In this document: positions 61-25,098 of the stretch, piece after piece
How the letters are laid out: every line of letters starts with the position of its first letter
Position numbering within the stretch: position 1 is the first letter of the stretch
Position numbers and translations under genes: made by a program
Notes under the pieces: generated by a model
Told to the model about the DNA's origin: nothing
The model's database searches: none
Seen by the model: only the letters and a program-made list of their open reading frames with translations
NCBI GenBank assembly: GCA_947459115.1
Contig: CANHCC010000001.1
Location: 1 to 60,678 of the forward strand
DNA from: Bacteroidota bacterium
Lineage (GTDB): Bacteria > Bacteroidota > Bacteroidia > J057 > RFSG01
Length of the DNA: 60,678 nucleotides
Reading direction: 5' to 3'

Positions 61-68
61 TAGCTTTG
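61..68 (+). promoter_or_regulatory. Candidate Bacteroidota-type -7 promoter box (TAGCTTTG, fits TAnnTTTG) upstream of the adhesin locus
   Basis: Exact fit to TAnnTTTG at 61-68. No convincing TTTG -33 partner at the usual spacing. If used, the transcript would include ATG-112 and the poly-C tract. Confidence 0.25.
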
Positions 69-140
69 AATTATAATTAATAATATTCACCAACATGTAA
101 GCCTAAACCAAATGAAAAATTCCCTGACTCCAAAATTTAA

Positions 141-159
141 CCCCCCCCCCCCCCCCCCC
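141..159 (+). repeat. Homopolymeric poly-C tract, 19 consecutive C
   Basis: Counted directly: C141-C159, then T160 and CCC161-163. It lies between an upstream ATG (112) and the ATG-207 start of the 1401-aa ORF. Confidence 0.95.
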
Positions 160-206
160 TCCCATCATGCCAAGCTGTTGTAAATCAGTTAGTTAATCTT
201 GTATTT

Positions 207-3200
207 ATGATGATTGTCGGTTTTTCTTTTTCGAATGATTTGATGGCTCAGCCTTGGGATTGGGTTGCACCTGCTGCACCGGGTGTATCTATTTCAACGA
301 CGAATACATTTGAAGGAGCAGAAGTAATTATTGATCCAGATCCAGCAGTAACTGGAACACAGACAATCGGAGGGTTTAGATTGAAATACGGCTATGCTCT
401 TTTTGAAGAAGCGGGTAATGGAATTCCCAGTCCTAACATGGGAACAGGTACCATGTTCTATTGGATGCCGGATATGGGCGCATTGAGATTTGGAAGAAAT
501 CAATTAGGAACCGTTTGGGATCCAGCATCAAATGTAGGACTGTATTCATTTGGGATGGGGTATAATACAATTGCCTCAGGGGATAATGCAGCGAGTTTTG
601 GAGAGGCCACAACTTCCTCTGGTACTAATTCCTTTTCTCAAGGGAAAGGTACAATAGCCTCCGGATTAAATTCCGTGGCTATGGGAAATTTTTGTGAAGC
701 TAAAGCCAATGCGTGTTTCGCTGTGGGGAATTGGTGCGTATCCGGTGTGAGTGGAACCAATGGACATAACTCATTTGCCACAGGAAATTTAACCAATGCA
801 ATTGGAGCCAATTCATTTTCTTGTGGGACTCAAACAAATGCCAATAATTGGAATTCATTTGCTGGAGGGTATGGAAATGACGCAAACGGAATAGGCAGTA
901 CGGCATTTGGATTTTGGAATGATGCTGTGGCTGACTATTCATTTGCGTTAGGAATAAATTCAAAATCGGGTATTAGTTCAAGTCTTGGTACTGCAAGTGT
1001 AACATTTGGGAGAATGACCGAAACACATGCTAACTATTCTTTTGCATTAGGCAATTTATCTAAAGCTAAAGGATTGCAGAGTATGGCTGGAGGTTCCTCC
1101 GCTGAGGCGGAAGGAGATAATAGTCTGGCTTATGGAGATAGGGTTAAAACGGATGCTGCTGCAGATAATGCCGTGGCATTTGGCCTGCGGACGAAAGCAA
1201 CCGGGAAACAGAGTCTTTCCGGTGGATCGAATTTAACAGAAGCAATAGGAGATAATAGTATTGCCTTTGGAGATAATGTAAAGACCAATACAGGAGCTGC
1301 TAACGCAGTAGCACTGGGTAATGACACACAGGCCGATGGGATTAATTGTCTTGTCGGAGGAAATAATAACACCGTCGCCGGGGCTGACAATAGTTTTGCG
1401 TTTGGGAATAATATTCAGATATCGAATCTCGGAATTGGATCTACCTCTTTTGGGATGTCCAATACTATTAATGCTACCAATAGCATGAGTCATGGTCTTT
1501 TTAACAAAGTGGATGGAGATGGAAGTGCTGTATTTGGAAAAAGCAATACCTCCAATTCAACTGGAATACATAGTTTGGGGACAGGAGAGGGAAATATCGC
1601 CAATGGCCGAAATTCCATAGCATCTGGCAATAATACCGAGGCTAATGGCAGTCAAAGTTTTTCGGGAGGAATTGGCAATGGAGGTGTAACACAGGCAAAT
1701 GGGGATAATAGCATCGCCTATGGAGAGAATGTAAAAGCGGATGGAGATAATTCCATAGCTTTGGGAAATACCACCATCAGTACCGGAAATAATACGATGT
1801 CAGGCGGAAATAACAATACGGAAGCCAGAGGCATAAATAGCATTGCTTGGGGCTCGAATACTCAAACTTCCTTAACAGCGGATAATGCAGTAGCCTTGGG
1901 CGCAGGAACTGTTGCAATTGGTCGTCAGAGTTTATCTGGGGGAAATAATAATAGCACAGCAAGTGGCTTCAACAGCATTGCATTTGGGAATAATGTCAAT
2001 ACCAGTGCTACAGCTGATAATTCAGTCGTTACAGGATTGAATAATACGACCAATGCCAAACAAACCTTAACAGTAGGTACTGCCAATACCAATCAAGGGG
2101 ATAATAGTGTAATAGGGGGCGACAATAACTTCATCGGGCCATTGGCAAGAAATTCTATGGCAACTGGCGCTTTTTCGGTTATCACGGGTGATTTAAGTTT
2201 TGCAGGTGGAGCAGGAAATCGAGTGGCTTCAACCAGTGGATTTTCTTATGGGTCCGCCAATCAGGTATTTTCTACTGCAACCAATGGGATAGCTACAGGT
2301 AGCCAAACAGAGGCGCATGGTTTACAAAGTTTTTCGGGAGGAGAAGGCACTCAGGCATTAGCAGATAATTCTGTGGTTTTTGGGAAGAATAATACAGTTA
2401 ATCAACCTCAGAGTATTTGTTCCGGTGAAAGATCTACAATAGCTTCGGTATTGGGATTTGGTTCAAGTGCGGCATTTGGGTATAGAATTGACCTTAGAGG
2501 GAGTACTGCTTTTGGAGCAAACAATCAAACAATGCCTTGGGGAGATAATTCTTGTGCCTTTAATACACTAACAGAAGCTTCTGGGCCTTCATCTTGCTCA
2601 TTCAATGGAGGAACTCGTGCATTAGGCGCTTTATCTGCCAGTTTTGGACACTCAACAATAGCATCCGGAAATATGAGTTTTGTTGCAGGATATCTTTCTC
2701 GTACCTACGGCCAGCATTCTGCAGCATTTAATGAGAATTGTCAGGCAGGTTCAAGTACTGGAATTTCCCCTTTCAATGATTTTGCAACAGGTATGTCGAC
2801 AGTCGCAGAAGGTGGTCAATCATTTACAATGGGATCTGTTACCTGGGCAACTGGTTCTAACTCCCTGGCAACGGGGGACTCAACTACAACTACTGGAAGC
2901 AACTCGTTTACCACAGGCAGATTCACCCATGCCAACCAAACCAATTCTCATGCGCATGGCGAAAATGTCGTTAATAAGGGCATCAACTCCTTTGCTCAGG
3001 GCCAGCGAGTTATCTCTAACGCCGATAATAATGTCATCTTTGGTTTAGGCGGTACAAACACCTGGCTCGACAATATTCAGACTAATTCCTTTATGGTCGG
3101 CTTTAACAGTAATGCACCTACCTTTTATGTAAGTACAGCATCTGGTAATGGCACTACTGGAAATGTAGGTATTGGAGGGCCAGGATATAGGCCACTCGGT

Positions 3201-4412
3201 ACTCCCAACCCATTGGAAAAATTAGAGGTATGGAATGGGAATATTGCCCAGACGAATGTGGATTTGGTTGCAAATACAGGAGCTACGAGTGCGAATAGTT
3301 CTACTAATTTATTGGGCTCAACTGGTGGAGGATGTAATGTTTTTGGATTAACAACAAATAATATCGGGTCTGCAAATACAATCGCAGGTATTGCAAACAC
3401 CTTCTTACAAATTGGTATTGATGGAAGTACTTCTGTATTAAATTATGATGACAATTCATCACTTATTTTTAATTCAACACTAGGCCCTTTATGTACTAAT
3501 ACCTACAATCCAATCATGCAGTTGAATGGAACCTCAAGTGCTTATCAAGTTGAAGTTTTTGGAAATGGATATATTTCTGGTATATGGACACCTTCCGATA
3601 TTCGGTTTAAAACAAATATTCAACCCATTAAAAATCCTCTTGAAATTATTAAAAATTTAAATGGTAAGTCTTATAACTACAAAAGGGATGAATTTAATAA
3701 ATATAATTTTTCAAAGGATATAAATTATGGTTTTATTGCTCAAGAAGTTAAGGCATTTATGCCAGAAATTGTAAAAGCTAATGATGATGATTATAATGCT
3801 ATAAATTATATTGCTATCATTCCAATATTGGTTGAAGCTTTAAAACTACAGCAAGAAACCATTGATAGTTTGAAGGTAAATTCTAATGTTAATCAAACAG
3901 TTGACTTGATTGATACTACATTTGAATATATTAATAATAAAGAATTGTTTAATACTGTTGATTCTTTAAAATTAAAAGTAACTAATCAGAGTTTACAAAT
4001 TGATACTCTTTTGAATACAGTTAATAGTCAGTTTGAAATGATTAATACTTTGTCAGAAAAGTTAAATTCAATTCTGAATTGTTTAAATCAGAATAATCTT
4101 TGCTTACAATCAAAAGTTTTAGATTCAAGCGAAGATAGCAAATCAGAAAGTGATCCATGGATTCTCCAAAATGTTCCAAATCCATTTAGAGATATAACGG
4201 AAATAAAGTATCATTTGCCAAAATATTCCAAAGTAGCCAGCATTATTGTGTTTGATGAACTAGGTCATATTGTTCATTCATTTGATAATCTTGAGACAGG
4301 AACACATGTAATTTCATTTGAAGCGATTAAAGTGACCACTCGTGTTTATTATTATAAATTTGTGGTAGACAATCAGGTAATTGCAACAAGGAAAATGCAG
4401 TTGTATAATTAA
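207..4412 (+). CDS. T9SS-secreted fibre/adhesin: YadA-head (Hep_Hag)-like repeats, Peptidase_S74 intramolecular chaperone domain, coiled coil, type A T9SS C-terminal sorting domain
   Basis: 1401-aa ORF. About 1000 aa carry degenerate G-x-N-S-x-A-x-G motifs (NSVAMG, NSFATG, NSIAFG, NAVALG, NSIAYG). SDIRFK...YGFIAQEV matches the tail-fibre chaperone signature. A heptad-like Leu/Asn-rich segment follows. The C-terminus is NVPNPF...YYYKF...QLYN. The N-terminus as called (MMIVGFSFSNDLMAQ) is a weak signal peptide. Confidence 0.85.
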   Translation: MMIVGFSFSNDLMAQPWDWVAPAAPGVSISTTNTFEGAEVIIDPDPAVTGTQTIGGFRLKYGYALFEEAGNGIPSPNMGTGTMFYWMPDMGALRFGRNQLGTVWDPASNVGLYSFGMGYNTIASGDNAASFGEATTSSGTNSFSQGKGTIASGLNSVAMGNFCEAKANACFAVGNWCVSGVSGTNGHNSFATGNLTNAIGANSFSCGTQTNANNWNSFAGGYGNDANGIGSTAFGFWNDAVADYSFALGINSKSGISSSLGTASVTFGRMTETHANYSFALGNLSKAKGLQSMAGGSSAEAEGDNSLAYGDRVKTDAAADNAVAFGLRTKATGKQSLSGGSNLTEAIGDNSIAFGDNVKTNTGAANAVALGNDTQADGINCLVGGNNNTVAGADNSFAFGNNIQISNLGIGSTSFGMSNTINATNSMSHGLFNKVDGDGSAVFGKSNTSNSTGIHSLGTGEGNIANGRNSIASGNNTEANGSQSFSGGIGNGGVTQANGDNSIAYGENVKADGDNSIALGNTTISTGNNTMSGGNNNTEARGINSIAWGSNTQTSLTADNAVALGAGTVAIGRQSLSGGNNNSTASGFNSIAFGNNVNTSATADNSVVTGLNNTTNAKQTLTVGTANTNQGDNSVIGGDNNFIGPLARNSMATGAFSVITGDLSFAGGAGNRVASTSGFSYGSANQVFSTATNGIATGSQTEAHGLQSFSGGEGTQALADNSVVFGKNNTVNQPQSICSGERSTIASVLGFGSSAAFGYRIDLRGSTAFGANNQTMPWGDNSCAFNTLTEASGPSSCSFNGGTRALGALSASFGHSTIASGNMSFVAGYLSRTYGQHSAAFNENCQAGSSTGISPFNDFATGMSTVAEGGQSFTMGSVTWATGSNSLATGDSTTTTGSNSFTTGRFTHANQTNSHAHGENVVNKGINSFAQGQRVISNADNNVIFGLGGTNTWLDNIQTNSFMVGFNSNAPTFYVSTASGNGTTGNVGIGGPGYRPLGTPNPLEKLEVWNGNIAQTNVDLVANTGATSANSSTNLLGSTGGGCNVFGLTTNNIGSANTIAGIANTFLQIGIDGSTSVLNYDDNSSLIFNSTLGPLCTNTYNPIMQLNGTSSAYQVEVFGNGYISGIWTPSDIRFKTNIQPIKNPLEIIKNLNGKSYNYKRDEFNKYNFSKDINYGFIAQEVKAFMPEIVKANDDDYNAINYIAIIPILVEALKLQQETIDSLKVNSNVNQTVDLIDTTFEYINNKELFNTVDSLKLKVTNQSLQIDTLLNTVNSQFEMINTLSEKLNSILNCLNQNNLCLQSKVLDSSEDSKSESDPWILQNVPNPFRDITEIKYHLPKYSKVASIIVFDELGHIVHSFDNLETGTHVISFEAIKVTTRVYYYKFVVDNQVIATRKMQLYN
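3594..3875 (+). other. Peptidase_S74-like intramolecular chaperone / autoprocessing domain (phage tail-fibre and endosialidase type)
   Basis: Motif S-D-I-R-F-K (Ser and Lys five residues apart, as in the S74 Ser-Lys dyad), followed by NPLEIIKNLNGKSYNYK and YGFIAQEVKAFMPEIV. Recognised from memory of the family; no HMM was run. Confidence 0.7.
4152..4409 (+). other. T9SS type A C-terminal sorting domain (Por_Secre_tail-like)
   Basis: The last ~85 aa read DPWILQNVPNPFRDITEIKYHLPK...VYYYKFVVDNQVIATRKMQLYN, a typical NPF...beta-sandwich CTD. Confidence 0.75.
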
Positions 4413-4452
4413 CTTAACTATATCTCCAAGAAGCGAATTTCAGTTTTGAAGT

Positions 4453-7400
4453 ATGAGTCAGAAAATTTGTGTGGTTGTCATATTTCAGTTGTTGATTTTC
4501 AATTTTTGTAATTCTCAGGTCAATTTCCATTGGACAAAACGAAGTGTTCAGCCCAGTGGGATGCCGTCGTTAACGACTGCGGTTTTGGAGGATTCTAATG
4601 GGGATGTAATTGTTAGCGGATATTATAAAGATACAATAATCTGGGATAATGTATTATTAAATAGTCCAAATTCAAGTCCAGGTTCATTTACTGCCTATAT
4701 TTCCAAGTTCGATCCTACAGGTAGTGCTATCTGGTCAATAAGTCCTGGGCATAGGTTAAGGACAATGTCTTATGCTACTAAAGTTGTTTCAGATAGGAAT
4801 AACAATATTTATGTTGCAGGCTTATTTAAGGATACAATTCTGTTTAATTCTCCTAATTATTTGGTTTCTAGTGTTCCAAATAGGTATAATGTTTTTTTAG
4901 CAAAGTATAATGCGAGTGGCGTTTTTCAATGGGTTATTCATGGAAATAATAATTTATTGGGGAATGAATGGCCTGATTTAACGATTGATAGTTTGGGGTA
5001 TTTATATTTATCCGGTGATTTTTCTCCTCCCGTTGATAATTCAATACTTAACCTCGGTAACTTAAATGTTGTCTCTAATCGGAGCACAAATGGATTTATC
5101 GCAAAAGTAGATACTAGTGGTATGGTTCTTTGGCTACATGCGACTTCTAATACATTGAACTCGAATGGGGTAGTTCATTTTAATTCAATTACAAATTCTA
5201 ATTGTGGGCATATATATGTAACAGGATATTTGACTGGGACTTCCAACTATACCGTTAATTTTTCTTCTCATCTTCAATATTCATATACATCAGGTGTCGG
5301 GCCTGATGTTTTCATATTAAAATGTGATTCATCAGGCAATATTTTGTGGAGTCAGGTTTTTAGTGGTTCCAGAACAGATTTGGGTTTAGATGTAACTACT
5401 CATAATGATGAGAGTTTATTTCTAATTGGACGATATAATAGTCCTTCAATTACCATCGGTAATTTTACTTTGAGTAATGTAAATTCTGTTTTTGATGGAT
5501 TTATTGCAAAGTTCGATTCAAGTGGTATTCCTATTTGGGCTAATTCATTTTCAGGAAACGGGTCAAGTTGGCCAAGTAATATTAATTGTAATGATTCAGC
5601 TTGGTTATATGTTCATGGGCATTTTAATTCTGATACATGTTATTATTTAAATCGAACTTTTGTTCCACCAACTCCAACACCCTCTGTTTCATCCTCATTT
5701 TATTTGAAAATTGACACAGCTGGTCAACCCCTATGTCATTCGGTGCTTGATTCTACAGAATTTATTATTTCAAATAATACATTATTTGTAAGTCAGGTAC
5801 ATCGTGATACTATGTTTTATAATGCCTTGGTTTCTAAAGAGACTAATACAGGACTTTCCCAAGTCTCCAAATGCTCCTGCGGCCCCGACACCCTTCTTGC
5901 CACCCTCTCCGGCACCCAAACCATCTGCTCGGGCTACCCCGGCCAGGCTCTCATGCAATTCTCTGGCGTAGGTCCTTATAGCATCACCTACTCAGATGGC
6001 ACAAGCAATACTACGGTAACGGGCATCACGAACCGATACTATTTTATCAATGCCACCCCTTCGGCATCCGTGTCTTATACCTTGATGGCATTTTCGGGAG
6101 CATCAGGTCCAGGGCCTTTTTCGGGCATGGCTTCGATACAGGTGATACAAGCTCCTACGGCAAGTCTTTCCGCGGCTCAAACCATCTGTCAGGGCGATAG
6201 TGTGAGGCTAAGTGTAAACTTGGGCGGTACGGGACCTTGGAGGTTCACCTATGCTTCGGGTTCGGGTAATCTCGCAGTAACGGCGTTGACGACCCCTTGG
6301 ACCCGAACGCTTACCCCTGCTGCTTCTTTCACCTGGACGGTGAATAATCTGAATAACTTCGTGTGCAGCGGCACCAGTCCCCCGTCTTCTTCGGTAACGG
6401 TAGGCATCAGACCGGGTCTCAGCCTGAGCGGTGGAACAATAGTCTGTGCGGAGGATTCCTTGAATTTCTCGGCGATACTGACAGGCTCCCAACCCTGGAG
6501 TTTGTCTTATACGAATGGCACCACAAGCCAAAGCTTTACCGGCCTCACGAGTACTCCTTTTGTATTTAAAACTCCTCCAGCAGCTTCGACTTCGTTTAGT
6601 TTGATGGGCGGAACGGGATGTAGGAGAGATACGATACTCAATCGGGTCATTCCGCCCATTTTACAGGTGAGCCATACCGCAACTGCCGTATCTTGCTTTG
6701 GAGGCAGCAATGGAACAGGGCAGGGGAGTGCAGCTGGGGGAGGAGGGACTTTTAATTTTGTCTGGAACACCCTACCAGTTCAGTCTGTTGCTACTGCTAC
6801 CGGGCTTGCAGCAAGCTCTTGGATTCTGAGTGTAACGGATAACCTGGGTTGTGTTAAAAGAGATACTGCCCTCATCACCCAACCACCCCAACTCACAGCT
6901 TCAATAACCGCCACGCCCTTGTCCTGCTTCGGTCAGAGTAATGCCACGGCCACGGCAACTGGCACAGGAGGAACGGGTGCTTATCAATTCTCCTGGAATA
7001 CCAATCCGGTGCAAAGTACCCAAACCGCTTCTGGTCTGAGTGCCACGACTTGGACAGTTACAATCACCGATCAAAATGCCTGCACCGCTCAGGCTACTAT
7101 CCCCATTACTTCTCCAACGCCTTTACTGCTCAATACTACTGCTACGCCAGTGTCCTGCTTCGGCGGAAGTGATGGAGGGGTTGCGGTTTCAGCCAATGGA
7201 GGCACCCCGGGTTATTCGTATGCTTGGAATACCAGTCCGATACGAACCACCGCAACCGTAACTGGCCTGAATGCCGGTTCTTATACCGTTACCGTTTCGG
7301 ATAATCAGGGCTGTCAGACTCAGGCTATGGTGGTGGTGATGCCGGCTCAAGCGCCGATTTTGATTGCATCCTCTTTTACAAATATCTCCTGCTTTGGAGG

Positions 7401-10400
7401 CAGCAATGGTACCGCGCAAGCTATTGCCTCAGGCGGAAGTGGAGGCTTTTCTTTCACCTGGAATACCAATCCCATTCAATCCACACAAAATGCCACCGGA
7501 CTAAGTGCTGGCTCCTGGGTAATTACCGTTACCGACCAACAAAATTGCAATCGCAGGGATACCCTAACCCTCCTACAACCTCCGGCACTCAGCACAACCC
7601 TCACGCATACAGCCCTTGCCTGCTTGGGCAGTTCACAGGGACAAGCTACGGTCTCGGTTACGGGAGGAGCGCCTGCATATTCTTACACTTGGAATACCAA
7701 TCCGATTCAAACAACAGCAACGGCCACAGGCTTGTCAGCAGGCACTTGGCAGGTACAAGTAAGGGATCTAAATTCTTGTACGGATTCTGCTCAAGTGATT
7801 CTGACCGAACCCCCTTTGCTTACCCTAAGCAACAGTGGTACGGCCATCTCCTGCTTCGGCGGCAGTAACGGAACCGCCACAACAACAGCCTCCGGAGGCA
7901 CGCCCCCTTATACCTATAGCTGGAACACCAACCCTGTCCAAACCACCGCAAACGCCACTGGTCTCACAGCCGGCACTTGGACGGTAACGGTCTTGGATGC
8001 GAACCTATGCCAGCAGATTTCTGCTACCACGATTACCCAACCGACAATACTCAATTTATTTACTTCCTTCACTGCGGTTCAATGTTTTGGGGGAACGAAT
8101 GGTACCGCCACTGCTCAGGCGAATGGGGGAACAGCGCCCTATACCTACACTTGGAATACTACACCGATACAAACCAGTACAACTGCAACCGGACTCAGAG
8201 CAGGAACTTATTCCATTCAAATTCAGGATGCCCAAAATTGTCAGAGCACTGCAACCCTTACCATTCCTCAGCCTGCAGCCATCACCCTCAATTCCTTGAT
8301 TAATCCCGTTTCTTGTCCGGGAGGGAATGATGGTTCTGTGACGGTCGCAGCTTCCGGAGGAAATGGTCCCTATGCCTATACTTGGAACACTTTGCCTGTT
8401 CAAACCGGAACCACCGGCACAGGCCTAAGTGCAGGCACCTGGGGCATCAGCATTACCGATGCTTCAGGATGTAGGTTGGATACTAACCTCATCATGACGC
8501 AACCACCCGCGATTACCCTTACTCAAACCATCACGCCTGTGTCCTGTTTGGGTAGATCGGATGGAAGCATCAGTATTCTTCCCTCAGGTGGAAATCCCCC
8601 CTACACTTGCACCTGGAATACCCTGCCCGTGCAGACTAGCTTTACCGCCACAGGACTCAGCCAGCAGTTTTACTTAGCTACGATTACAGATATCAGAGGC
8701 TGTCAGCATCAGGAAAATATCAGTGTTCCCACACAGGCTCCGATACAAATCCAGATTACCCCACAACCCACCAGCTGTAACAATACTCTGGATGGACAAG
8801 CCGCCCTAACCGTCACTGGCGGCACCCCGAACTACAGCTATGCCTGGAGTACTATCCCCATTCAAACCCTGACCACGGCCACAGGTTTAGCACCCGGAAT
8901 CTGGCAAGTAATGGTCACCGATAGCAGAGCCTGTGTGGATTCGGCAAGTACGCTAATTATCAGTCCTACGGCACTGCAAGTATCAGCCACTGCCAATGAT
9001 GTCTCTTGCTTCGGACTCAGTGATGGCGCGGCTTCAGGGAGTTTTAGCGGAGGTACACCGCCCTATACCTACTCATGGAATACCACGCCTTTGCAAACTA
9101 CTCAGGTTATTACCGGCATTCCGGCAGGGATTTATGGGTTTACTGTAAATGATGCCAATGGATGCAGCAGCACCGCCACAGTGGTCGTGCGTCAACCGAC
9201 AGCACTCAGCGGAACCCTCAATCCTACTCGGCCTTTATGCCATGGAGGAAACGACGGTAGCCTAACGGCAACCATTTCCGGAGGGATAGCCCCTTATGCT
9301 TACTTATGGACAGGAGGACAAACAAGTGCTTCAATTTATCAACTCACAGCAGGTTCTTATAGCCTGATCGTAACCGATGCGAATGCCTGTACGCTCATTC
9401 TAACGACTCTACTCACAGAACCCAGTCCTTTGCAAGCCAATATCACGGGCTTCAACCTCACCTGCATGGCTCCGCCCAATAATGGCGCGGCTTCTGTAAA
9501 TCCGACGGGTGGAACTGCCCCTTATTCGTATCTTTGGACAGGAGGCAATTTCCCTACCCAGGCCAATAACTCTGGCTTCTCGGCAGGGACTTGGTCGGTG
9601 CAGGTGCTTGATGCCAACAACTGCATGACTCAAGCCAGTGTGACCCTCACCGCCCCTCAAAGACCTATTGCCCATGCAGGTCAGGATACCTTCTTCTGTG
9701 CTGGAAGTGGGGGCATTCAGCTGAATGGCACGGGAAGTGGAGGACTTGTACCTTACTCCTATCAATGGTCGCCTAACAATGGCTCCCTTTCGAATGCAAA
9801 CGCCCCGGATCCCATTGCGAATCCAGATTCTATCACCATTTATTATCTCACCGTAACCGATGCTGCGGGTTGTAGTAGTTTGATTCCCGATCAGGTAATT
9901 ATTTCTCCGATAGATTTACCCATTGCCGATGCTGGTCCGGATGAGGATTATTGTATGACAGGGCCAGCAGTGTTTATTTCCGGAAGTGTCGCCAATCCTG
10001 CATCTGGAGGTTATTCTTGGAAATGGATTCCGGCCACAGGCTTGTTCTGCGATACCTGTCCCACGACCTATGCCAATCCTAGCACTACCACGATTTACAC
10101 GCTGATTGTTACGCACCTATCAACAGGATGTAGCAGTGACAGCACCACTTTAAATACTCAAAGTTCTGTGACCATCACCGTCAAGCCTAGACCCATTGTC
10201 TATGCGGGTTTGGATACCACGATTTGTCCGGGTGATACGGCCTATCTCTGTGCCACAGCCACAGGCGTCGGGCCTCTGTACACCTATGAATGGAGTCCGA
10301 ATATCGGGATGAATGACAGCACCCAACAATGCCCGGGCGTATCACCCAATCATAGCATTTATTACTTTGTCGTAGCTACTTCTGAGGGCTGTGAAAGTCC

Positions 10401-11937
10401 TGCGGATTCCGTATTGGTGAGTGTTGCGCCCATGCCCACAGTGGATGCAGGCAGTGTTAAAAATATCTGTGCAGGGGATTCTGTAAAGTTAGATGGACAA
10501 ATCCAAGGAGGCTTTCAGGCCAGTATTCAATGGAGTCCATCGAGTGGCCTGAATGACCCAACAACCCTAAAACCTAATGCCTCTCCGAGTGTTTCCCAAT
10601 GGTATTATTTACAGGCCTTAAATGCAAGCTGTGCCGGACCGAAGGATTCCGTGTTTGTGGTGGTGCATCCGGTTCCACAAGTGAATGCGGGGAGTGATAC
10701 CAGTGTCTGTATGCCGTATGGAAGCCTTCAATTGCAGGGCAGTGTTACAGGTGTAACGCCCCCTTTGGGGATAGAATGGCGTCCATCTTCGGGATTAACC
10801 GCCACGAATATTATAAACCCGTTTATCAATTCCTCCACTTCAATGATGTATTATCTGAAAGTGACATCCGGAGTGGCACCTACTTTGTGTAGTGCGTATG
10901 ATTCGGTGTTGATAACGATATCGCCGGAAGTGAAGTTTACGCTAATAGCGGATACAACGACCATTTGCGGAGGAGATAGTATCCGCCTTCGTACCGAAAC
11001 CGAAAACATCAACCTAATCTATAATTGGCTGCCCCAACCCTGGGTCTATCCCACCACCAGTAATGGCTCTGAGGCTTACACCAAGCCGGATACGAGTCTA
11101 TACATCAAAGTACTGGCTCAGGAAGGCGCCTGTTCCGCACAAGATTCCATATGGATCAAAGTGCATCCCAAAGTCATAGCCGACTTTACCCAGAGCCAGT
11201 CCAACTTATGCCAGCCCGATACTGTTGTCTTTCTGAACTTATCCGCCAATGCGATTTCCTATCAATGGCATTTTGGAGACAGTTCTGCTATCAACAACAC
11301 GACCAATCCTAAACATTTTTATCAATCCTTTGGAACTTATACGACCATGTTGATTAGCATAGGGGACGGAGGATGTAGGGATACTGCGTATGGAAAAATT
11401 CCGATTCAGATCCAGCCCATCTTATCCGCTGAAGTGATAAGCGATCCAGGTTTTCCGGTAGAATTAATCTTACCGGCAGGCAGTCTCAGTTTAAAAGAAA
11501 TTTCCGGCCAACTCAGTCATTGGCATTGGGACTTTGGCGACGGAACCCAGTACCAGGGCGTCGCTCAGGTGAATCACACCTATCAAAATCCAGGCACTTA
11601 TTATCTGACCTTAAGGGCACAAGACAGCAATGCCTGTCCGGTTCATTGGAAAGCAGGACCTGTGGTGATTCGTCTCCCGGAATTGTTTATCCCTAATGTT
11701 TTCAGCCCCAATGGGGATGGGATAGGCGACTACTTCCGCATCGAGTATGTCGGGAATGAGCACTACCATCTTCAAATTATAGATCGTTGGGGCGTCACGC
11801 AATTTGATACCCATAATCCCCAGCAGCCATGGGACGGCCGGGATTTAAACGGGAGCGCCGTCAGTGAAGGGGTATATTTTTATGTAGTCACAATAGGCCA
11901 AACCCCATTCCAGGGAAATATTACCGTGGTGCGGTAG
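4453..11937 (+). CDS. Giant T9SS cargo / gliding-type surface protein: SBBP beta-propeller-like repeats, Ig-like domains, about 13 SprB repeats, about 6 further Ig-like repeats, PKD domains, type B CTD
   Basis: 2494-aa ORF with a signal peptide (VVIFQLLIFNFCNSQ). SBBP-like motifs are present (NNIYVAGLF, GYLYLSGDF, GHIYVTGYL, FIAKFDSSGIPIW). The SprB repeat motif C-F-G-G-S-N-G...GGT-P-Y-x-Y-x-W-N-T recurs. FGDGT marks the PKD motifs. The tail reads FSPNGDGIGDYF. Confidence 0.9.
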   Translation: MSQKICVVVIFQLLIFNFCNSQVNFHWTKRSVQPSGMPSLTTAVLEDSNGDVIVSGYYKDTIIWDNVLLNSPNSSPGSFTAYISKFDPTGSAIWSISPGHRLRTMSYATKVVSDRNNNIYVAGLFKDTILFNSPNYLVSSVPNRYNVFLAKYNASGVFQWVIHGNNNLLGNEWPDLTIDSLGYLYLSGDFSPPVDNSILNLGNLNVVSNRSTNGFIAKVDTSGMVLWLHATSNTLNSNGVVHFNSITNSNCGHIYVTGYLTGTSNYTVNFSSHLQYSYTSGVGPDVFILKCDSSGNILWSQVFSGSRTDLGLDVTTHNDESLFLIGRYNSPSITIGNFTLSNVNSVFDGFIAKFDSSGIPIWANSFSGNGSSWPSNINCNDSAWLYVHGHFNSDTCYYLNRTFVPPTPTPSVSSSFYLKIDTAGQPLCHSVLDSTEFIISNNTLFVSQVHRDTMFYNALVSKETNTGLSQVSKCSCGPDTLLATLSGTQTICSGYPGQALMQFSGVGPYSITYSDGTSNTTVTGITNRYYFINATPSASVSYTLMAFSGASGPGPFSGMASIQVIQAPTASLSAAQTICQGDSVRLSVNLGGTGPWRFTYASGSGNLAVTALTTPWTRTLTPAASFTWTVNNLNNFVCSGTSPPSSSVTVGIRPGLSLSGGTIVCAEDSLNFSAILTGSQPWSLSYTNGTTSQSFTGLTSTPFVFKTPPAASTSFSLMGGTGCRRDTILNRVIPPILQVSHTATAVSCFGGSNGTGQGSAAGGGGTFNFVWNTLPVQSVATATGLAASSWILSVTDNLGCVKRDTALITQPPQLTASITATPLSCFGQSNATATATGTGGTGAYQFSWNTNPVQSTQTASGLSATTWTVTITDQNACTAQATIPITSPTPLLLNTTATPVSCFGGSDGGVAVSANGGTPGYSYAWNTSPIRTTATVTGLNAGSYTVTVSDNQGCQTQAMVVVMPAQAPILIASSFTNISCFGGSNGTAQAIASGGSGGFSFTWNTNPIQSTQNATGLSAGSWVITVTDQQNCNRRDTLTLLQPPALSTTLTHTALACLGSSQGQATVSVTGGAPAYSYTWNTNPIQTTATATGLSAGTWQVQVRDLNSCTDSAQVILTEPPLLTLSNSGTAISCFGGSNGTATTTASGGTPPYTYSWNTNPVQTTANATGLTAGTWTVTVLDANLCQQISATTITQPTILNLFTSFTAVQCFGGTNGTATAQANGGTAPYTYTWNTTPIQTSTTATGLRAGTYSIQIQDAQNCQSTATLTIPQPAAITLNSLINPVSCPGGNDGSVTVAASGGNGPYAYTWNTLPVQTGTTGTGLSAGTWGISITDASGCRLDTNLIMTQPPAITLTQTITPVSCLGRSDGSISILPSGGNPPYTCTWNTLPVQTSFTATGLSQQFYLATITDIRGCQHQENISVPTQAPIQIQITPQPTSCNNTLDGQAALTVTGGTPNYSYAWSTIPIQTLTTATGLAPGIWQVMVTDSRACVDSASTLIISPTALQVSATANDVSCFGLSDGAASGSFSGGTPPYTYSWNTTPLQTTQVITGIPAGIYGFTVNDANGCSSTATVVVRQPTALSGTLNPTRPLCHGGNDGSLTATISGGIAPYAYLWTGGQTSASIYQLTAGSYSLIVTDANACTLILTTLLTEPSPLQANITGFNLTCMAPPNNGAASVNPTGGTAPYSYLWTGGNFPTQANNSGFSAGTWSVQVLDANNCMTQASVTLTAPQRPIAHAGQDTFFCAGSGGIQLNGTGSGGLVPYSYQWSPNNGSLSNANAPDPIANPDSITIYYLTVTDAAGCSSLIPDQVIISPIDLPIADAGPDEDYCMTGPAVFISGSVANPASGGYSWKWIPATGLFCDTCPTTYANPSTTTIYTLIVTHLSTGCSSDSTTLNTQSSVTITVKPRPIVYAGLDTTICPGDTAYLCATATGVGPLYTYEWSPNIGMNDSTQQCPGVSPNHSIYYFVVATSEGCESPADSVLVSVAPMPTVDAGSVKNICAGDSVKLDGQIQGGFQASIQWSPSSGLNDPTTLKPNASPSVSQWYYLQALNASCAGPKDSVFVVVHPVPQVNAGSDTSVCMPYGSLQLQGSVTGVTPPLGIEWRPSSGLTATNIINPFINSSTSMMYYLKVTSGVAPTLCSAYDSVLITISPEVKFTLIADTTTICGGDSIRLRTETENINLIYNWLPQPWVYPTTSNGSEAYTKPDTSLYIKVLAQEGACSAQDSIWIKVHPKVIADFTQSQSNLCQPDTVVFLNLSANAISYQWHFGDSSAINNTTNPKHFYQSFGTYTTMLISIGDGGCRDTAYGKIPIQIQPILSAEVISDPGFPVELILPAGSLSLKEISGQLSHWHWDFGDGTQYQGVAQVNHTYQNPGTYYLTLRAQDSNACPVHWKAGPVVIRLPELFIPNVFSPNGDGIGDYFRIEYVGNEHYHLQIIDRWGVTQFDTHNPQQPWDGRDLNGSAVSEGVYFYVVTIGQTPFQGNITVVR
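6655..9660 (+). repeat. About 13 tandem SprB-type repeats (about 231 nt / 77 aa each) inside the 2494-aa ORF
   Basis: Counted 13 occurrences of the CxG(G)xxG...GG(T/S)xxYxYxW(N/S/T) unit in the translation. The copies have diverged at DNA level. Confidence 0.8.
11674..11934 (+). other. T9SS type B C-terminal domain (gliding motility-associated C-terminal domain, CHU_C-like)
   Basis: LPELFIPNVFSPNGDGIGDYFRIEY...IIDRWGVTQFD...WDGRDLNG..VSEGVYFYVV...GNITVVR. Confidence 0.85.
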
Positions 11938-24298: not shown

Positions 24299-24304
24299 GG
24301 TGAC

Positions 24305-24384
24305 GGTAAGTTACTTACCCCCCTTGGTAAGTTACTTACCCCCCTTGGTAAGTTACTTACCCCCCCCTTGGTAAGTTACTTACC
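24305..24384 (+). repeat. Tandem array A: 4 copies of the near-palindromic 15-mer GGTAAGTTACTTACC separated by C-rich spacers (CCCCTT, CCCCTT, CCCCCCTT)
   Basis: Read directly. Units start at 24305, 24326, 24347 and 24370 (periods 21, 21, 23 nt). The arms GGTAAGT and ACTTACC are reverse complements around a central T. The array lies between the sbtA-like stop (24298) and the lipoprotein ATG (24403). Confidence 0.95.
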
Positions 24385-24402
24385 TTTCTTAATTTTATAT
24401 GC

Positions 24403-25098
24403 ATGAAACTCATCCTATTCTCCCTTTGCTTTTCCTTCTTCCTCTCCTGCACACAGTCCCCTTCCTCGGAGGATTCAATAAATGTTCCCAGCCCATCCGG
24501 GCTGGAAATCCAGGAACAGGTCCTTAAGGAAGGATTTAGTCCATACAAGGTTCAAATCCCCGATAGAGATACTTTCGTCTTCATTCAGCAGTGGGATGCT
24601 TGCAAAGATTTTGCAGCCTGTCAGCTGAAAGACCTGACTTCCGGTCAAAAAAAACATATTCAAATTATTGATAAAAAACAGGAGGCGATGTTGCGCCTGT
24701 TCGGGTTGGGGGCTTTAGTCCTGGGGAAGAAAGACAAGGTGATGATTATTGACTATACGGAATATAAAGACCTTCAATGCGAAGGGGTCTCCGAGCCAAT
24801 TCGCAAGGGCGTTGGTGTCAGGGCCGCTATCTTTATTCGAAATTCAGATTCTAAACTCCAGCTTACTTCTCCTGCACAGGTTGCTGCTGCGGTTGAGCTT
24901 GGTCAACTTCAGGCTGAACTGACCCTGCATGTGTTTGGTTTTAAAAATGAAATCAGTCGTAAAGTGCTGGAGGAATTTGGAAAGTCAGGGTCAGTATTTA
25001 ATGTAGATGCCTATCTGGCCCTGCATAATCAGGTAGGAAAAATAATGGAATCCATGCAGGATACTATGAGGGTAGAGCCGGTTAGAATTCCTATGTAA
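24403..25098 (+). CDS. Hypothetical lipoprotein
   Basis: 231 aa. The signal peptide has a lipobox (MKLILFSLCFSFFLSC-TQS). I recognise no other family motif. Confidence 0.6.
   Translation: MKLILFSLCFSFFLSCTQSPSSEDSINVPSPSGLEIQEQVLKEGFSPYKVQIPDRDTFVFIQQWDACKDFAACQLKDLTSGQKKHIQIIDKKQEAMLRLFGLGALVLGKKDKVMIIDYTEYKDLQCEGVSEPIRKGVGVRAAIFIRNSDSKLQLTSPAQVAAAVELGQLQAELTLHVFGFKNEISRKVLEEFGKSGSVFNVDAYLALHNQVGKIMESMQDTMRVEPVRIPM

What the first reader, a model, noticed from the sequence alone, without database searches (positions are those of the whole stretch)
112..212. 19-nt poly-C tract between an upstream ATG and the adhesin ORF: candidate slipped-strand phase-variation switch
**Seen in the sequence**
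- ATG 112 opens a short ORF, MKNSLTPKFNPPPPPPSHHAKLL-stop (112..183). It reads through a run of 19 C (141-159).
- In the frame of the 1401-aa adhesin, the region from 141 to ATG 207 is open. It is closed only by TAA 138-140, immediately before the tract.
- I worked through the frames by hand. A tract of 20 C (+1) or 17 C (-2) fuses ATG 112 to the adhesin. The fused N-terminus would be MKNSLTPKFN-PPPPPP-LPSCQAVVNQLVNLVFMMIVGFSFSNDLMAQ, which has a charged n-region, a long hydrophobic core and an A-x-A-like cleavage context.
- With the present 19 C, the adhesin can only start at ATG 207. That gives MMIVGFSFSNDLMAQ, which has no charged n-region and a very short h-region. This is a poor Sec signal for a protein that must cross the inner membrane before T9SS export.

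**Established knowledge**
- Long homopolymers at the 5' end of surface-protein genes are the classic contingency-locus mechanism in Neisseria, Haemophilus and Campylobacter.

**Inference**
- This locus may toggle export or expression of the fibre. To my knowledge, homopolymer switches on T9SS cargo are not a well-described theme.
Basis: partly seen in the sequence, partly recalled or inferred. Interest (0 to 1): 0.72.

Follow-up and report, generated by a model that had tools for sequence, protein, structure and literature searches.

The report
Hypervariable poly-C switch on fibre gene
A run of 19 C's at the very start of a large surface-fibre gene of an uncultured freshwater Bacteroidia bacterium changes length between otherwise identical strains and so puts the gene in or out of frame, which is an ordinary kind of on/off switch seen here in an unusual organism and protein class.

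Summary
C19 lies at 141-159 and is the only homopolymer longer than 8 nt in the 60.7-kb contig. ATG112 reads through it to a stop at 181-183. The 1401-aa fibre ORF (207..4412) is open back to TAA 138-140. A change of +1 or -2 C would fuse the two.

The C run is 9, 10, 11, 12 or 19 nt. Contigs with C9, C10 and C11 have 0 mismatches over 4300 nt downstream and 0-1 over 1029 nt upstream, so only the tract differs. The C11 allele is in frame with the upstream ATG, and the source's gene call is one 1420-aa protein. The other 13 contigs, including this window, are out of frame.

The fibre ORF is intact in every full-length allele, with dN/dS of 0.25-0.45. Distant homologues start with ordinary MKK…AQ signal peptides. 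The ATG207 form lacks the charged part and most of the hydrophobic part of such a peptide.

This is a slipped-strand contingency locus in the signal-peptide-coding region, as in Neisseria pilC and opa, and the window carries an OFF allele. Not shown: the transcription start, within-sample heterogeneity, export of either form, and full T9SS cargo status (the C-terminal domain match is below threshold).

The parts
61..68 (+). Candidate Bacteroidota -7 promoter box TAGCTTTG (weak evidence).
   Evidence: It matches TAnnTTTG, the Bacteroidota -7 consensus (from my own knowledge). A TAGATTTG box sits at the aligned position in strain L005, 49 nt before that strain's start codon, compared with 43 nt before ATG112 here. 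The motif is not enriched in the window (27 found, 26.7 expected), so this is only a lead.
112..114 (+). Upstream ATG, the inferred true start codon of the fibre gene.
   Evidence: ATGAAAAATTCCCTGACTCCAAAATTTAA is conserved in all 14 contigs, with one substitution in L009. It is in frame with the fibre ORF in the C11 allele L004, where the gene is called from this ATG as 1420 aa.
112..183 (+). 23-codon truncated reading frame produced by the present C19 (OFF) allele.
   Evidence: It encodes MKNSLTPKFNPPPPPPSHHAKLL, with the stop at 181-183. In all alleles both non-fibre frames close within about 24 codons of the ATG.
138..140 (+). TAA that closes the fibre frame just before the tract in this allele.
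   Evidence: fibre frame open from +30 relative to ATG112.
141..159 (+). C19 homopolymer, the hypermutable element.
   Evidence: Lengths of 9, 10, 11, 12 and 19 are seen at this site in 14 contigs. Contigs otherwise identical over 5.3 kb differ only here, while 10 other homopolymers of 5-7 nt in the same stretch are invariant.
160..163 (+). TCCC remnant that interrupts the run. It is specific to this allele group.
   Evidence: The window, L001 and L002 have C19-T-CCC. The other groups have T-Cn or C10-TACC.
164..206 (+). Leader that is open in the fibre frame and encodes the first part of the hydrophobic core (…SCQAVVNQLVNLVF).
   Evidence: It is open in the fibre frame in every allele, including the 87%-identical L003 (YQTAVNQLVKILF) and group C (CQTVVNHLVKLVF). 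The substitutions keep it hydrophobic.
207..4412 (+). Fibre/adhesin-like ORF, 1401 aa from ATG207.
   Evidence: Pfam YadA_head repeats (45 bits, cut-off 25) and Peptidase_S74 intramolecular chaperone (62.8 bits). The T9SS type A C-terminal domain match is sub-threshold (TIGR04183 19.7 bits against 23; PF18962 19.2 against 27). The ORF is intact in all full-length alleles, with whole-ORF dN/dS of 0.25-0.45 and values as low as 0.08 in the first 700 codons.
4453..11937 (+). Downstream SprB-repeat protein with a T9SS type B C-terminal domain, 40 nt after the fibre stop. It may be co-transcribed.
   Evidence: Pfam SprB (353 bits) and CHU_C (62 bits); TIGR04131 38.5 bits, above its cut-off of 35. 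The same gene order is found in L002, L003, L004, L026 and L031. Co-transcription is inferred from the 40-nt gap only.

Best explanation

- **How the switch works:** The real start codon is ATG112. When the tract length puts ATG112 in frame, the cell makes a precursor with a complete Sec signal peptide: MKNSLTPKFN-(P)n-…AVVNQLVNLVFMMIVGFSFSNDLMA|Q. In-frame lengths are C11 in the T-Cn allele group, and C20 or C17 in the window's allele group. At any other length, translation from ATG112 stops after about 19-24 codons.
- **OFF state:** The fibre can then at best be started at ATG207, which gives a stump of a signal peptide. Little or no fibre should reach the surface.
- **State of this window:** The window carries an OFF allele with the longest tract seen, and so presumably the most mutable one.
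- **Shown:** the tract, the frames, the length polymorphism in a clonal background, the existence of an in-frame allele, and purifying selection on the ORF.
- **Inferred:** use of ATG112, failure of export from ATG207, reversibility within a lineage, and the ecological reason for the switch (escape from phage or grazers is the usual guess).
For: - **Length polymorphism:** 14 distinct contigs from 14 samples show T-C9 (1), T-C10 (3), T-C11 (1), T-C12 (4), C19-TCCC (3) and C10-TACC (2).
- **Clonal background:** L031 (C9), L026 (C10) and L027 (C11) have 0 mismatches and 0 gaps over 4300 nt downstream and 0-1 mismatch over 1029 nt upstream. L029 (C12) differs from them by 1 in 1838 nt.
- **Control for technical error:** Ten other homopolymers of 5-7 nt in the same 5.3 kb are invariant. 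The same length is recovered repeatedly from independent assemblies: C19 three times, C12 four times, C10 three times.
- **All frames occur:** All three reading frames are seen. The in-frame allele is called as one 1420-aa protein from the upstream ATG.
- **The gene is functional:** The 4.0-4.2-kb fibre ORF is intact in all four complete alleles. Whole-ORF dN/dS is 0.25-0.45. In the first 700 codons of window against L027 it is 0.085, from 72 synonymous and 22 non-synonymous differences.
- **Signal peptide:** Distant homologues begin with 18-24-aa signal peptides that have K/R at positions 2-3 and end in A/S|Q. The ATG207 form has 14 residues, no K/R and a 9-residue hydropathy peak of 1.79. 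The fused form has K2, K8 and a peak of 2.86, equal to the homologues' 2.56-2.86.
- **Leader:** The leader between the tract and ATG207 stays open and hydrophobic in an 87%-identical strain.
- **Assembly breaks:** Assemblies break at the tract. L003 begins 6 nt after it and L017 ends 20 nt before it.
- **Precedent:** 5' homopolymer tracts as reversible gene switches are a general prokaryotic device (PMC2831843).
Against: - **Few ON alleles:** Only 1 of 14 contigs is ON. Under neutrality about one third would be expected. The contigs are not independent, and OFF may be favoured in situ, but this fits equally well with ATG207 being sufficient.
- **No read-level data:** Heterogeneity within a sample and reversibility are not shown.
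- **No transcription start:** The TAnnTTTG box at 61-68 is not statistically supported.
- **Unusual signal peptide:** The fused signal peptide is long (42-46 aa) and has a proline run between the n- and h-regions. No signal-peptide predictor was available.
- **Possible technical error:** These are consensus sequences of short-read metagenome assemblies, where long C/G runs are error-prone.
- **Export route unconfirmed:** The T9SS C-terminal domain match is below the curated thresholds.
Confidence: 0.75

Rival explanations
1. ATG207 is the working start. The tract lies in a leader or upstream mini-ORF, so its length variation is neutral or only tunes the expression level. One route for tuning would be termination at 181-183 followed by re-initiation 24 nt downstream.
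For: 13 of 14 contigs are out of frame, yet the ORF is intact and under purifying selection. ATGATG is conserved in all alleles. The mini-ORF stops lie 12-24 nt before ATG207 in all alleles.
Against: The ATG207 form has 14 residues before the AQ site, no K/R and a truncated hydrophobic core, unlike every homologue inspected. The fibre frame stays open and hydrophobic upstream of ATG207 in diverged alleles. One allele is exactly in frame with the upstream ATG. Predominantly OFF populations with conserved ORFs are normal for contingency loci (my own knowledge of Neisseria opa and Helicobacter outer-membrane protein genes).
Confidence: 0.12
2. Expression relies on recoding rather than on DNA change. 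RNA polymerase slippage on the long C/G run, or ribosomal slippage on CCC-C proline codons, restores the frame in a fraction of molecules, so out-of-frame alleles are leaky rather than OFF.
For: Runs of 9-19 identical bases are long enough for transcriptional slippage, and CCC-C is a known +1 shift-prone site (my own knowledge, not tested here). This would also explain purifying selection with mostly out-of-frame alleles.
Against: The correction needed differs between near-clonal alleles: +1 for C9 and C12, -1 or +2 for C10 and C19. No single programmed shift is therefore conserved. No stimulatory structure or known RNA family is present. This mechanism can coexist with the DNA switch and would only soften it.
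Confidence: 0.08
3. The length differences are technical, arising from homopolymer errors in short-read sequencing, assembly or polishing.
For: All data are consensus sequences from metagenome assemblies. Two contigs break at the tract. Long G/C runs have poor base quality on Illumina machines (my own knowledge).
Against: The same lengths recur in independent assemblies: C19 three times, C12 four times, C10 three times. Ten other homopolymers in the same 5.3 kb never vary. The tract differences come with allele-specific flanking bases (T-Cn, C19-TCCC, C10-TACC).
Confidence: 0.04
4. The fibre gene is being lost, and the frameshifts are one-way inactivating mutations.
For: 13 of 14 contigs are out of frame. 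One strain (L005) has replaced the gene with a 543-aa protein, and another (L010) has no fibre gene next to the 56-aa neighbour.
Against: There are no further stops or frameshifts in four complete 4-kb alleles, and dN/dS is well below 1. Several tract lengths occur in one clone, one of them in frame.
Confidence: 0.03

Closest known systems
Neisseria gonorrhoeae/meningitidis pilC poly-G tract and opa CTCTT repeats (repeat tracts in the signal-peptide-coding region)
   Same: A simple repeat lies inside the signal-peptide-coding part of a surface adhesin gene. Length changes by slipped-strand mispairing put the mature protein in or out of frame with the start codon. In-frame length changes only alter a tolerant part of the leader. 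Most alleles are OFF at any one time. This comparison rests on my own knowledge.
   Different: The host here is an uncultured freshwater Bacteroidia bacterium rather than a host-adapted proteobacterial pathogen. The cargo is probably a T9SS-type fibre rather than a pilus-tip protein or an outer-membrane beta-barrel. The tract encodes a proline run. Switching has not been measured experimentally here.
5' homopolymer switches in general, for example Listeria inlA poly-A, Campylobacter poly-G genes and Bordetella poly-C/G tracts
   Same: A homopolymer near the 5' end causes reversible frameshift inactivation. PMC2831843 reports variation about 1000-fold above the point-mutation rate and a general 5' placement of such tracts. 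PMC1891110 and PMC8355987 are listed for Bordetella and Campylobacter.
   Different: At 19 nt this tract is much longer than the 6-10 nt typical of those cases. The evidence here comes from environmental metagenomes, not isolates.
Phase-variable trimeric autotransporter adhesins (Moraxella UspA1 poly-G, Neisseria NadA TAAA)
   Same: The protein has YadA-head-type repeats, and its expression is governed by a simple repeat.
   Different: In those cases the repeats lie upstream of the gene and act on transcription (my own knowledge). This protein gave no hit to a YadA membrane anchor. It ends instead in a Peptidase_S74 chaperone and a sub-threshold T9SS C-terminal domain match, so it is not a trimeric autotransporter.
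Inverton (invertible promoter) phase variation of Bacteroides surface structures
   Same: It belongs to the same phylum and achieves the same end, on/off heterogeneity of surface structures (PMC11892184, listed).
   Different: The mechanism is entirely different: a site-specific recombinase flips a promoter. No recombinase or flanking inverted repeats are involved at this locus.

Membership tests
Simple-sequence-repeat (homopolymer) translational contingency locus | A long homopolymer within or at the 5' end of the coding sequence | tested here: met
   C19 at 141-159, 29 nt after ATG112. It is the only run longer than 8 nt in 60.7 kb.
Simple-sequence-repeat (homopolymer) translational contingency locus | Tract length varies between genomes that are otherwise identical or nearly so | tested here: met
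   C9, C10, C11 and C12 occur on contigs with 0-1 differences over up to 5.3 kb. Other homopolymers are invariant.
Simple-sequence-repeat (homopolymer) translational contingency locus | Length changes toggle between a full-length ORF and a truncated peptide, and both states are observed | tested here: met
   1 in-frame allele (1420 aa from the upstream ATG) and 13 out-of-frame alleles that stop after 19-24 codons.
Simple-sequence-repeat (homopolymer) translational contingency locus | The gene is kept functional rather than being a decaying pseudogene | tested here: met
   All complete alleles are intact, with dN/dS of 0.25-0.45.
Simple-sequence-repeat (homopolymer) translational contingency locus | High-frequency, reversible switching within a clonal population, with a change in protein expression | not testable with these tools
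   This needs raw reads, single-colony amplicons or a reporter. The organism is uncultured.
T9SS cargo protein | C-terminal sorting domain (type A TIGR04183/PF18962 or type B TIGR04131) | tested here: inconclusive
   The last 100 aa score 19.7 bits on TIGR04183 (cut-off 23, model positions 3-68 of 72) and 19.2 bits on PF18962 (cut-off 27). The neighbouring SprB-like protein passes TIGR04131 with 38.5 bits against 35.
T9SS cargo protein | N-terminal Sec signal peptide | tested here: inconclusive
   It is present only if translation starts at ATG112 in an in-frame allele. Judged by charge and hydropathy, the ATG207 form is deficient. No dedicated predictor was available.
Trimeric autotransporter adhesin (YadA family) | YadA head repeats | tested here: met
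   PF05658, 45 bits against a cut-off of 25.
Trimeric autotransporter adhesin (YadA family) | C-terminal YadA membrane anchor (translocator beta-barrel) | tested here: not met
   No anchor family appears in the Pfam or NCBIfam hits. The NCBIfam autotransporter models score 21-33 bits against cut-offs of 750-3000. The C-terminus is Peptidase_S74 plus a sub-threshold T9SS C-terminal domain match.
Programmed ribosomal frameshift or transcriptional-slippage gene | A conserved slippery site that requires the same shift in all members | tested here: not met
   The shift needed is +1 in C9 and C12 alleles, -1 or +2 in C10 and C19 alleles, and none in C11.

The most novel reading that the evidence does not exclude
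A free-living, uncultured freshwater Bacteroidia bacterium runs a true contingency locus on a T9SS-exported fibre, and natural populations keep it mostly OFF, for example to escape phage or grazers that use the fibre. In addition, the OFF transcript exposes a 9-19-nt poly(C) stretch after early translation termination. Poly(C) is the classical Rho loading substrate, so OFF would also silence the downstream SprB-like gene by polarity. One homopolymer would then control a two-gene surface module. My searches of the held library found no paper that combines type IX secretion with homopolymeric phase variation.
Probability: 0.15. Interest if true: 0.6.

Novelty: new member of a known kind. Interest (0 to 1): 0.45.

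Why it matters
Repeat-driven contingency loci are textbook for host-adapted pathogens. They are hardly documented for free-living environmental Bacteroidota, where phase variation is usually ascribed to invertible promoters.

Here public metagenomes alone show one clone carrying four tract lengths, one of them in frame, at the start of a large surface fibre gene. This has three uses.

- It gives a concrete, checkable case of bet-hedging on a probable T9SS surface protein in nature.
- It warns annotators that the 1401-aa gene call starting at ATG207 is probably a truncated OFF form of a longer precursor.
- It offers a marker (tract length per sample) that could be followed through lake time series against phage abundance.

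Tried and rejected
- **DNA pattern scans of metagenome contigs:** Two scans across the tract found nothing. The first pattern was too strict, and for the second the collection apparently lacks these samples.
- **Scans of genome contigs:** Two scans, one with the fibre N-terminus and one with the SprB-like N-terminus, found no relative. The species' locus is not in the GTDB representatives, and no named organism was obtained.
- **Protein search with the fused N-terminus:** It returned only 26-41%-identical short 'tail fiber domain' proteins and no orthologue. These were useful only for comparing signal peptides.
- **Exact look-ups:** The 1401-aa and 1420-aa proteins are not in the clustered collection.
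- **SprB-like cluster members P0031-P0039:** All are C-terminal fragments, so they gave no upstream DNA.
- **Rfam:** Only chance-level matches at 1-400.
- **Promoter motif:** TAnnTTTG is not enriched in the window, so I do not claim a promoter.
- **Contig-end poly-G artefact:** Rejected, because L001 continues 2.8 kb upstream with ordinary genes.
- **Tract as promoter spacer:** Rejected, because the tract lies after a conserved ATG and an allele exists that reads through it in frame.
Full report
**1. The observation**

Positions 141-159 are 19 consecutive C, followed by T and CCC. The window has 43.7% G+C. No other homopolymer exceeds 8 nt.

ATG112 opens MKNSLTPKFNPPPPPPSHHAKLL, which stops at 181-183. 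The 1401-aa ORF starts at ATG207. Its frame is open back to 141, is closed by TAA 138-140, and has no ATG, GTG or TTG in between.

The window is a complete 60,678-bp contig, so the tract is only 140 nt from a contig end. This is not an end artefact. Two other assemblies (L001 and L002) are 100% identical to the window over 6.5 and 7.4 kb. They carry the same C19, and L001 continues 2.8 kb further upstream into ordinary genes.

**2. The gene**

- **Domains:** The 1401-aa protein has YadA-head-type repeats (45 bits) and a Peptidase_S74 intramolecular-chaperone domain (62.8 bits).
- **C-terminus:** The last 100 residues match the T9SS type A sorting domain over nearly the whole model, but below the curated cut-offs (TIGR04183 19.7 against 23; PF18962 19.2 against 27).
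- **Not an autotransporter:** There is no YadA anchor, so it is not a trimeric autotransporter.
- **Neighbour:** Forty nucleotides downstream lies a 2494-aa SprB-repeat protein with a type B T9SS domain above threshold.
- **Organism:** RpoB places the organism among uncultured Bacteroidia genomes assembled from metagenomes. The nearest named isolate, a Pontibacter, is 74% identical. One related contig comes from a freshwater metagenome.

**3. Related sequences**

Direct searches for orthologues failed. The route that worked was through neighbours. The SprB-like protein and three small upstream genes are in the protein collection, and their contigs could be fetched. This gave the locus on 14 distinct contigs from 14 samples. 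There are three allele groups:

| Group | Sequence after TTTAA | C-run length: contigs |
|---|---|---|
| A | T-Cn-ATCATGCC | 9: L031; 10: L012, L015, L026; 11: L004 (same contig as L027); 12: L032, L033, L029, L034 |
| B | C19-T-CCC-ATCATGCC | 19: window, L001, L002 (one strain) |
| C | C10-TACC-ATGCC | 10: L028, L019 |

The ATG-to-ATGATG distances are 82, 83, 84, 85 and 95 nt, so all three frames occur. Only C11 is in frame. On that contig the gene call recorded with the contig is one 1420-aa protein beginning at the equivalent of ATG112: MKNSLTPKFNPPPPSCQAVVNQLVNLVFMMIVGFSFSNDLMAQ….

**4. Is the tract hypermutable?**

- L031 (C9), L026 (C10) and L027 (C11) show 0 mismatches and 0 gaps over 4300 nt downstream of the tract. 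Upstream they show 0-1 mismatch over 1029 nt.
- L029 (C12) differs from them by 1 in 1838 nt.
- Ten other homopolymers of 5-7 nt in the same 5.3 kb are the same length in all three contigs.

The tract therefore changes length far faster than the surrounding bases change, which defines a simple-repeat hotspot. Each length is also seen repeatedly in independent assemblies, which argues against random consensus error.

Two contigs break at the tract. L003 starts 6 nt after it and L017 ends 20 nt before it. This is what one expects where reads disagree or are poor.

**5. Is ATG112 the real start?**

- **Evidence for:**
  - An in-frame allele exists.
  - The 29 nt from ATG112 to the tract are conserved in all alleles.
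  - The fibre frame between the tract and ATG207 is open in every allele, and its residues stay hydrophobic in diverged strains: AVVNQLVNLVF, TVVNHLVKLVF and TAVNQLVKILF.
  - The other two frames always stop within about 24 codons.
  - Distant homologues start with 18-24-residue signal peptides carrying K/R at positions 2-3 and ending in A/S|Q. The ATG207 form has 14 residues, no K/R and a weaker hydrophobic peak (1.79, against 2.86 for the fused form and 2.56-2.86 for homologues).
  - In strain L005 a different cargo gene sits behind a similar upstream block. Its start codon lies 49 nt after the aligned TAGATTTG box, compared with 43 nt for ATG112 here.
- **Evidence lacking:**
  - The transcription start is unknown.
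  - The TAnnTTTG box is not enriched in this window (27 found, 26.7 expected).
  - I had no signal-peptide predictor.

**6. Is the gene alive?**

Four complete alleles have intact ORFs of 1326-1401 codons from ATGATG. Whole-ORF dN/dS is 0.25-0.45. In the first 700 codons of window against L027 it is 0.085. A gene that is out of frame in 13 of 14 contigs yet kept this clean must be expressed some of the time. That could happen after reversion to ON, by leaky slippage, or from ATG207.

The gene is also mosaic. Window against L027 has dS 0.16 in the 5' half and 1.49 in the 3' half. L027 against L028 has an identical 3' half and a diverged 5' half. This points to recombination between alleles, as is common for variable surface proteins.

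**7. Mechanism and rivals**

- **Best explanation (confidence 0.75):** Slipped-strand mispairing in the C run shifts the frame between ATG112 and the fibre ORF. The window holds an OFF allele.
- **Main rival (0.12):** ATG207 suffices and the tract merely sits in a leader or mini-ORF.
- **Recoding (0.08):** Transcriptional or ribosomal slippage could make OFF leaky. It cannot be a conserved programmed event, because different alleles need different shifts.
- **Technical artefact (0.04) and gene decay (0.03):** Both are disfavoured.
- **OFF excess:** The excess of OFF alleles (1 of 14 ON; about one third expected if neutral and independent) is noted. The contigs are not independent samples of switching events.

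**8. Comparison with what is known**

The design is classical: a repeat inside the signal-peptide-coding region of an adhesin gene, as in Neisseria pilC (poly-G) and opa (CTCTT), cited from my own knowledge. More generally, 5' homopolymers act as reversible switches (PMC2831843).

What is unusual is the setting. The host is an uncultured freshwater Bacteroidia bacterium and the fibre is probably a T9SS cargo. The tract reaches 19 nt, and the evidence comes entirely from natural populations. Full-text searches found 12 papers that mention both type IX secretion and phase variation, and none that also mentions homopolymeric tracts. The one I opened does not describe such a switch. I therefore class it as a new member of a known kind, of moderate interest.

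Noticed in passing
window 24303-24385: About 3.7 tandem copies of a 21-nt unit, GGTAAGTTACTTACCCCCCTT, lie in the gap before ORF 24403..25098. Each unit is a small palindrome (GGTAAG/CTTACC) followed by a C run of 6, 6 or 8. It could be another length-variable element or a protein-binding array.
   Followed up: no
window 2393-5868; L027, L028, L033: The fibre gene is mosaic. Window against L027 has dS 0.16 in codons 1-700 but 1.49 in codons 700 to the end. L027 against L028 has an identical 3' half and a diverged 5' half. blastn finds no match between window 2393-5868 and L004. The hypervariable block therefore spans the 3' half of the fibre gene and the first 1.4 kb of the SprB-like gene, which suggests cassette-like recombination.
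   Followed up: partly
L005 2395-4153: In one strain, whose SprB-like gene region is about 95% identical at the DNA level, the 1400-aa fibre is replaced by a 543-aa protein with Peptidase_S74 and a weak T9SS type A domain. It sits behind a similar upstream block and has an ordinary start with no homopolymer.
   Followed up: partly
L003 1-10; L017 2020-2040: Two assemblies break at the tract. L003 (sample 3300071646) begins 6 nt after the tract position, and L017 ends 20 nt before it.
   Followed up: partly
L001 2690-2795 (just upstream of window position 1): Two copies of a hairpin repeat (GTCCGGCACTTTAGTGCCGGA-like) lie between the 56-aa gene and the fibre promoter region. Strain SNPs in them coincide with the point where the window's contig ends. 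L016 ends in similar repeats.
   Followed up: no
L001 759-1276; L003 11712-12229: A PhdYeFM/YoeB toxin-antitoxin pair lies upstream of the fibre locus in most strains, but downstream of the SprB-like gene in L003. The surroundings of the locus are rearranged between strains.
   Followed up: no
window 207-4412: The exact 1401-aa protein and the 1420-aa in-frame form are absent from the clustered protein collection, although contigs that encode them are indexed. Homology searches with this protein therefore miss its own orthologues.
   Followed up: yes
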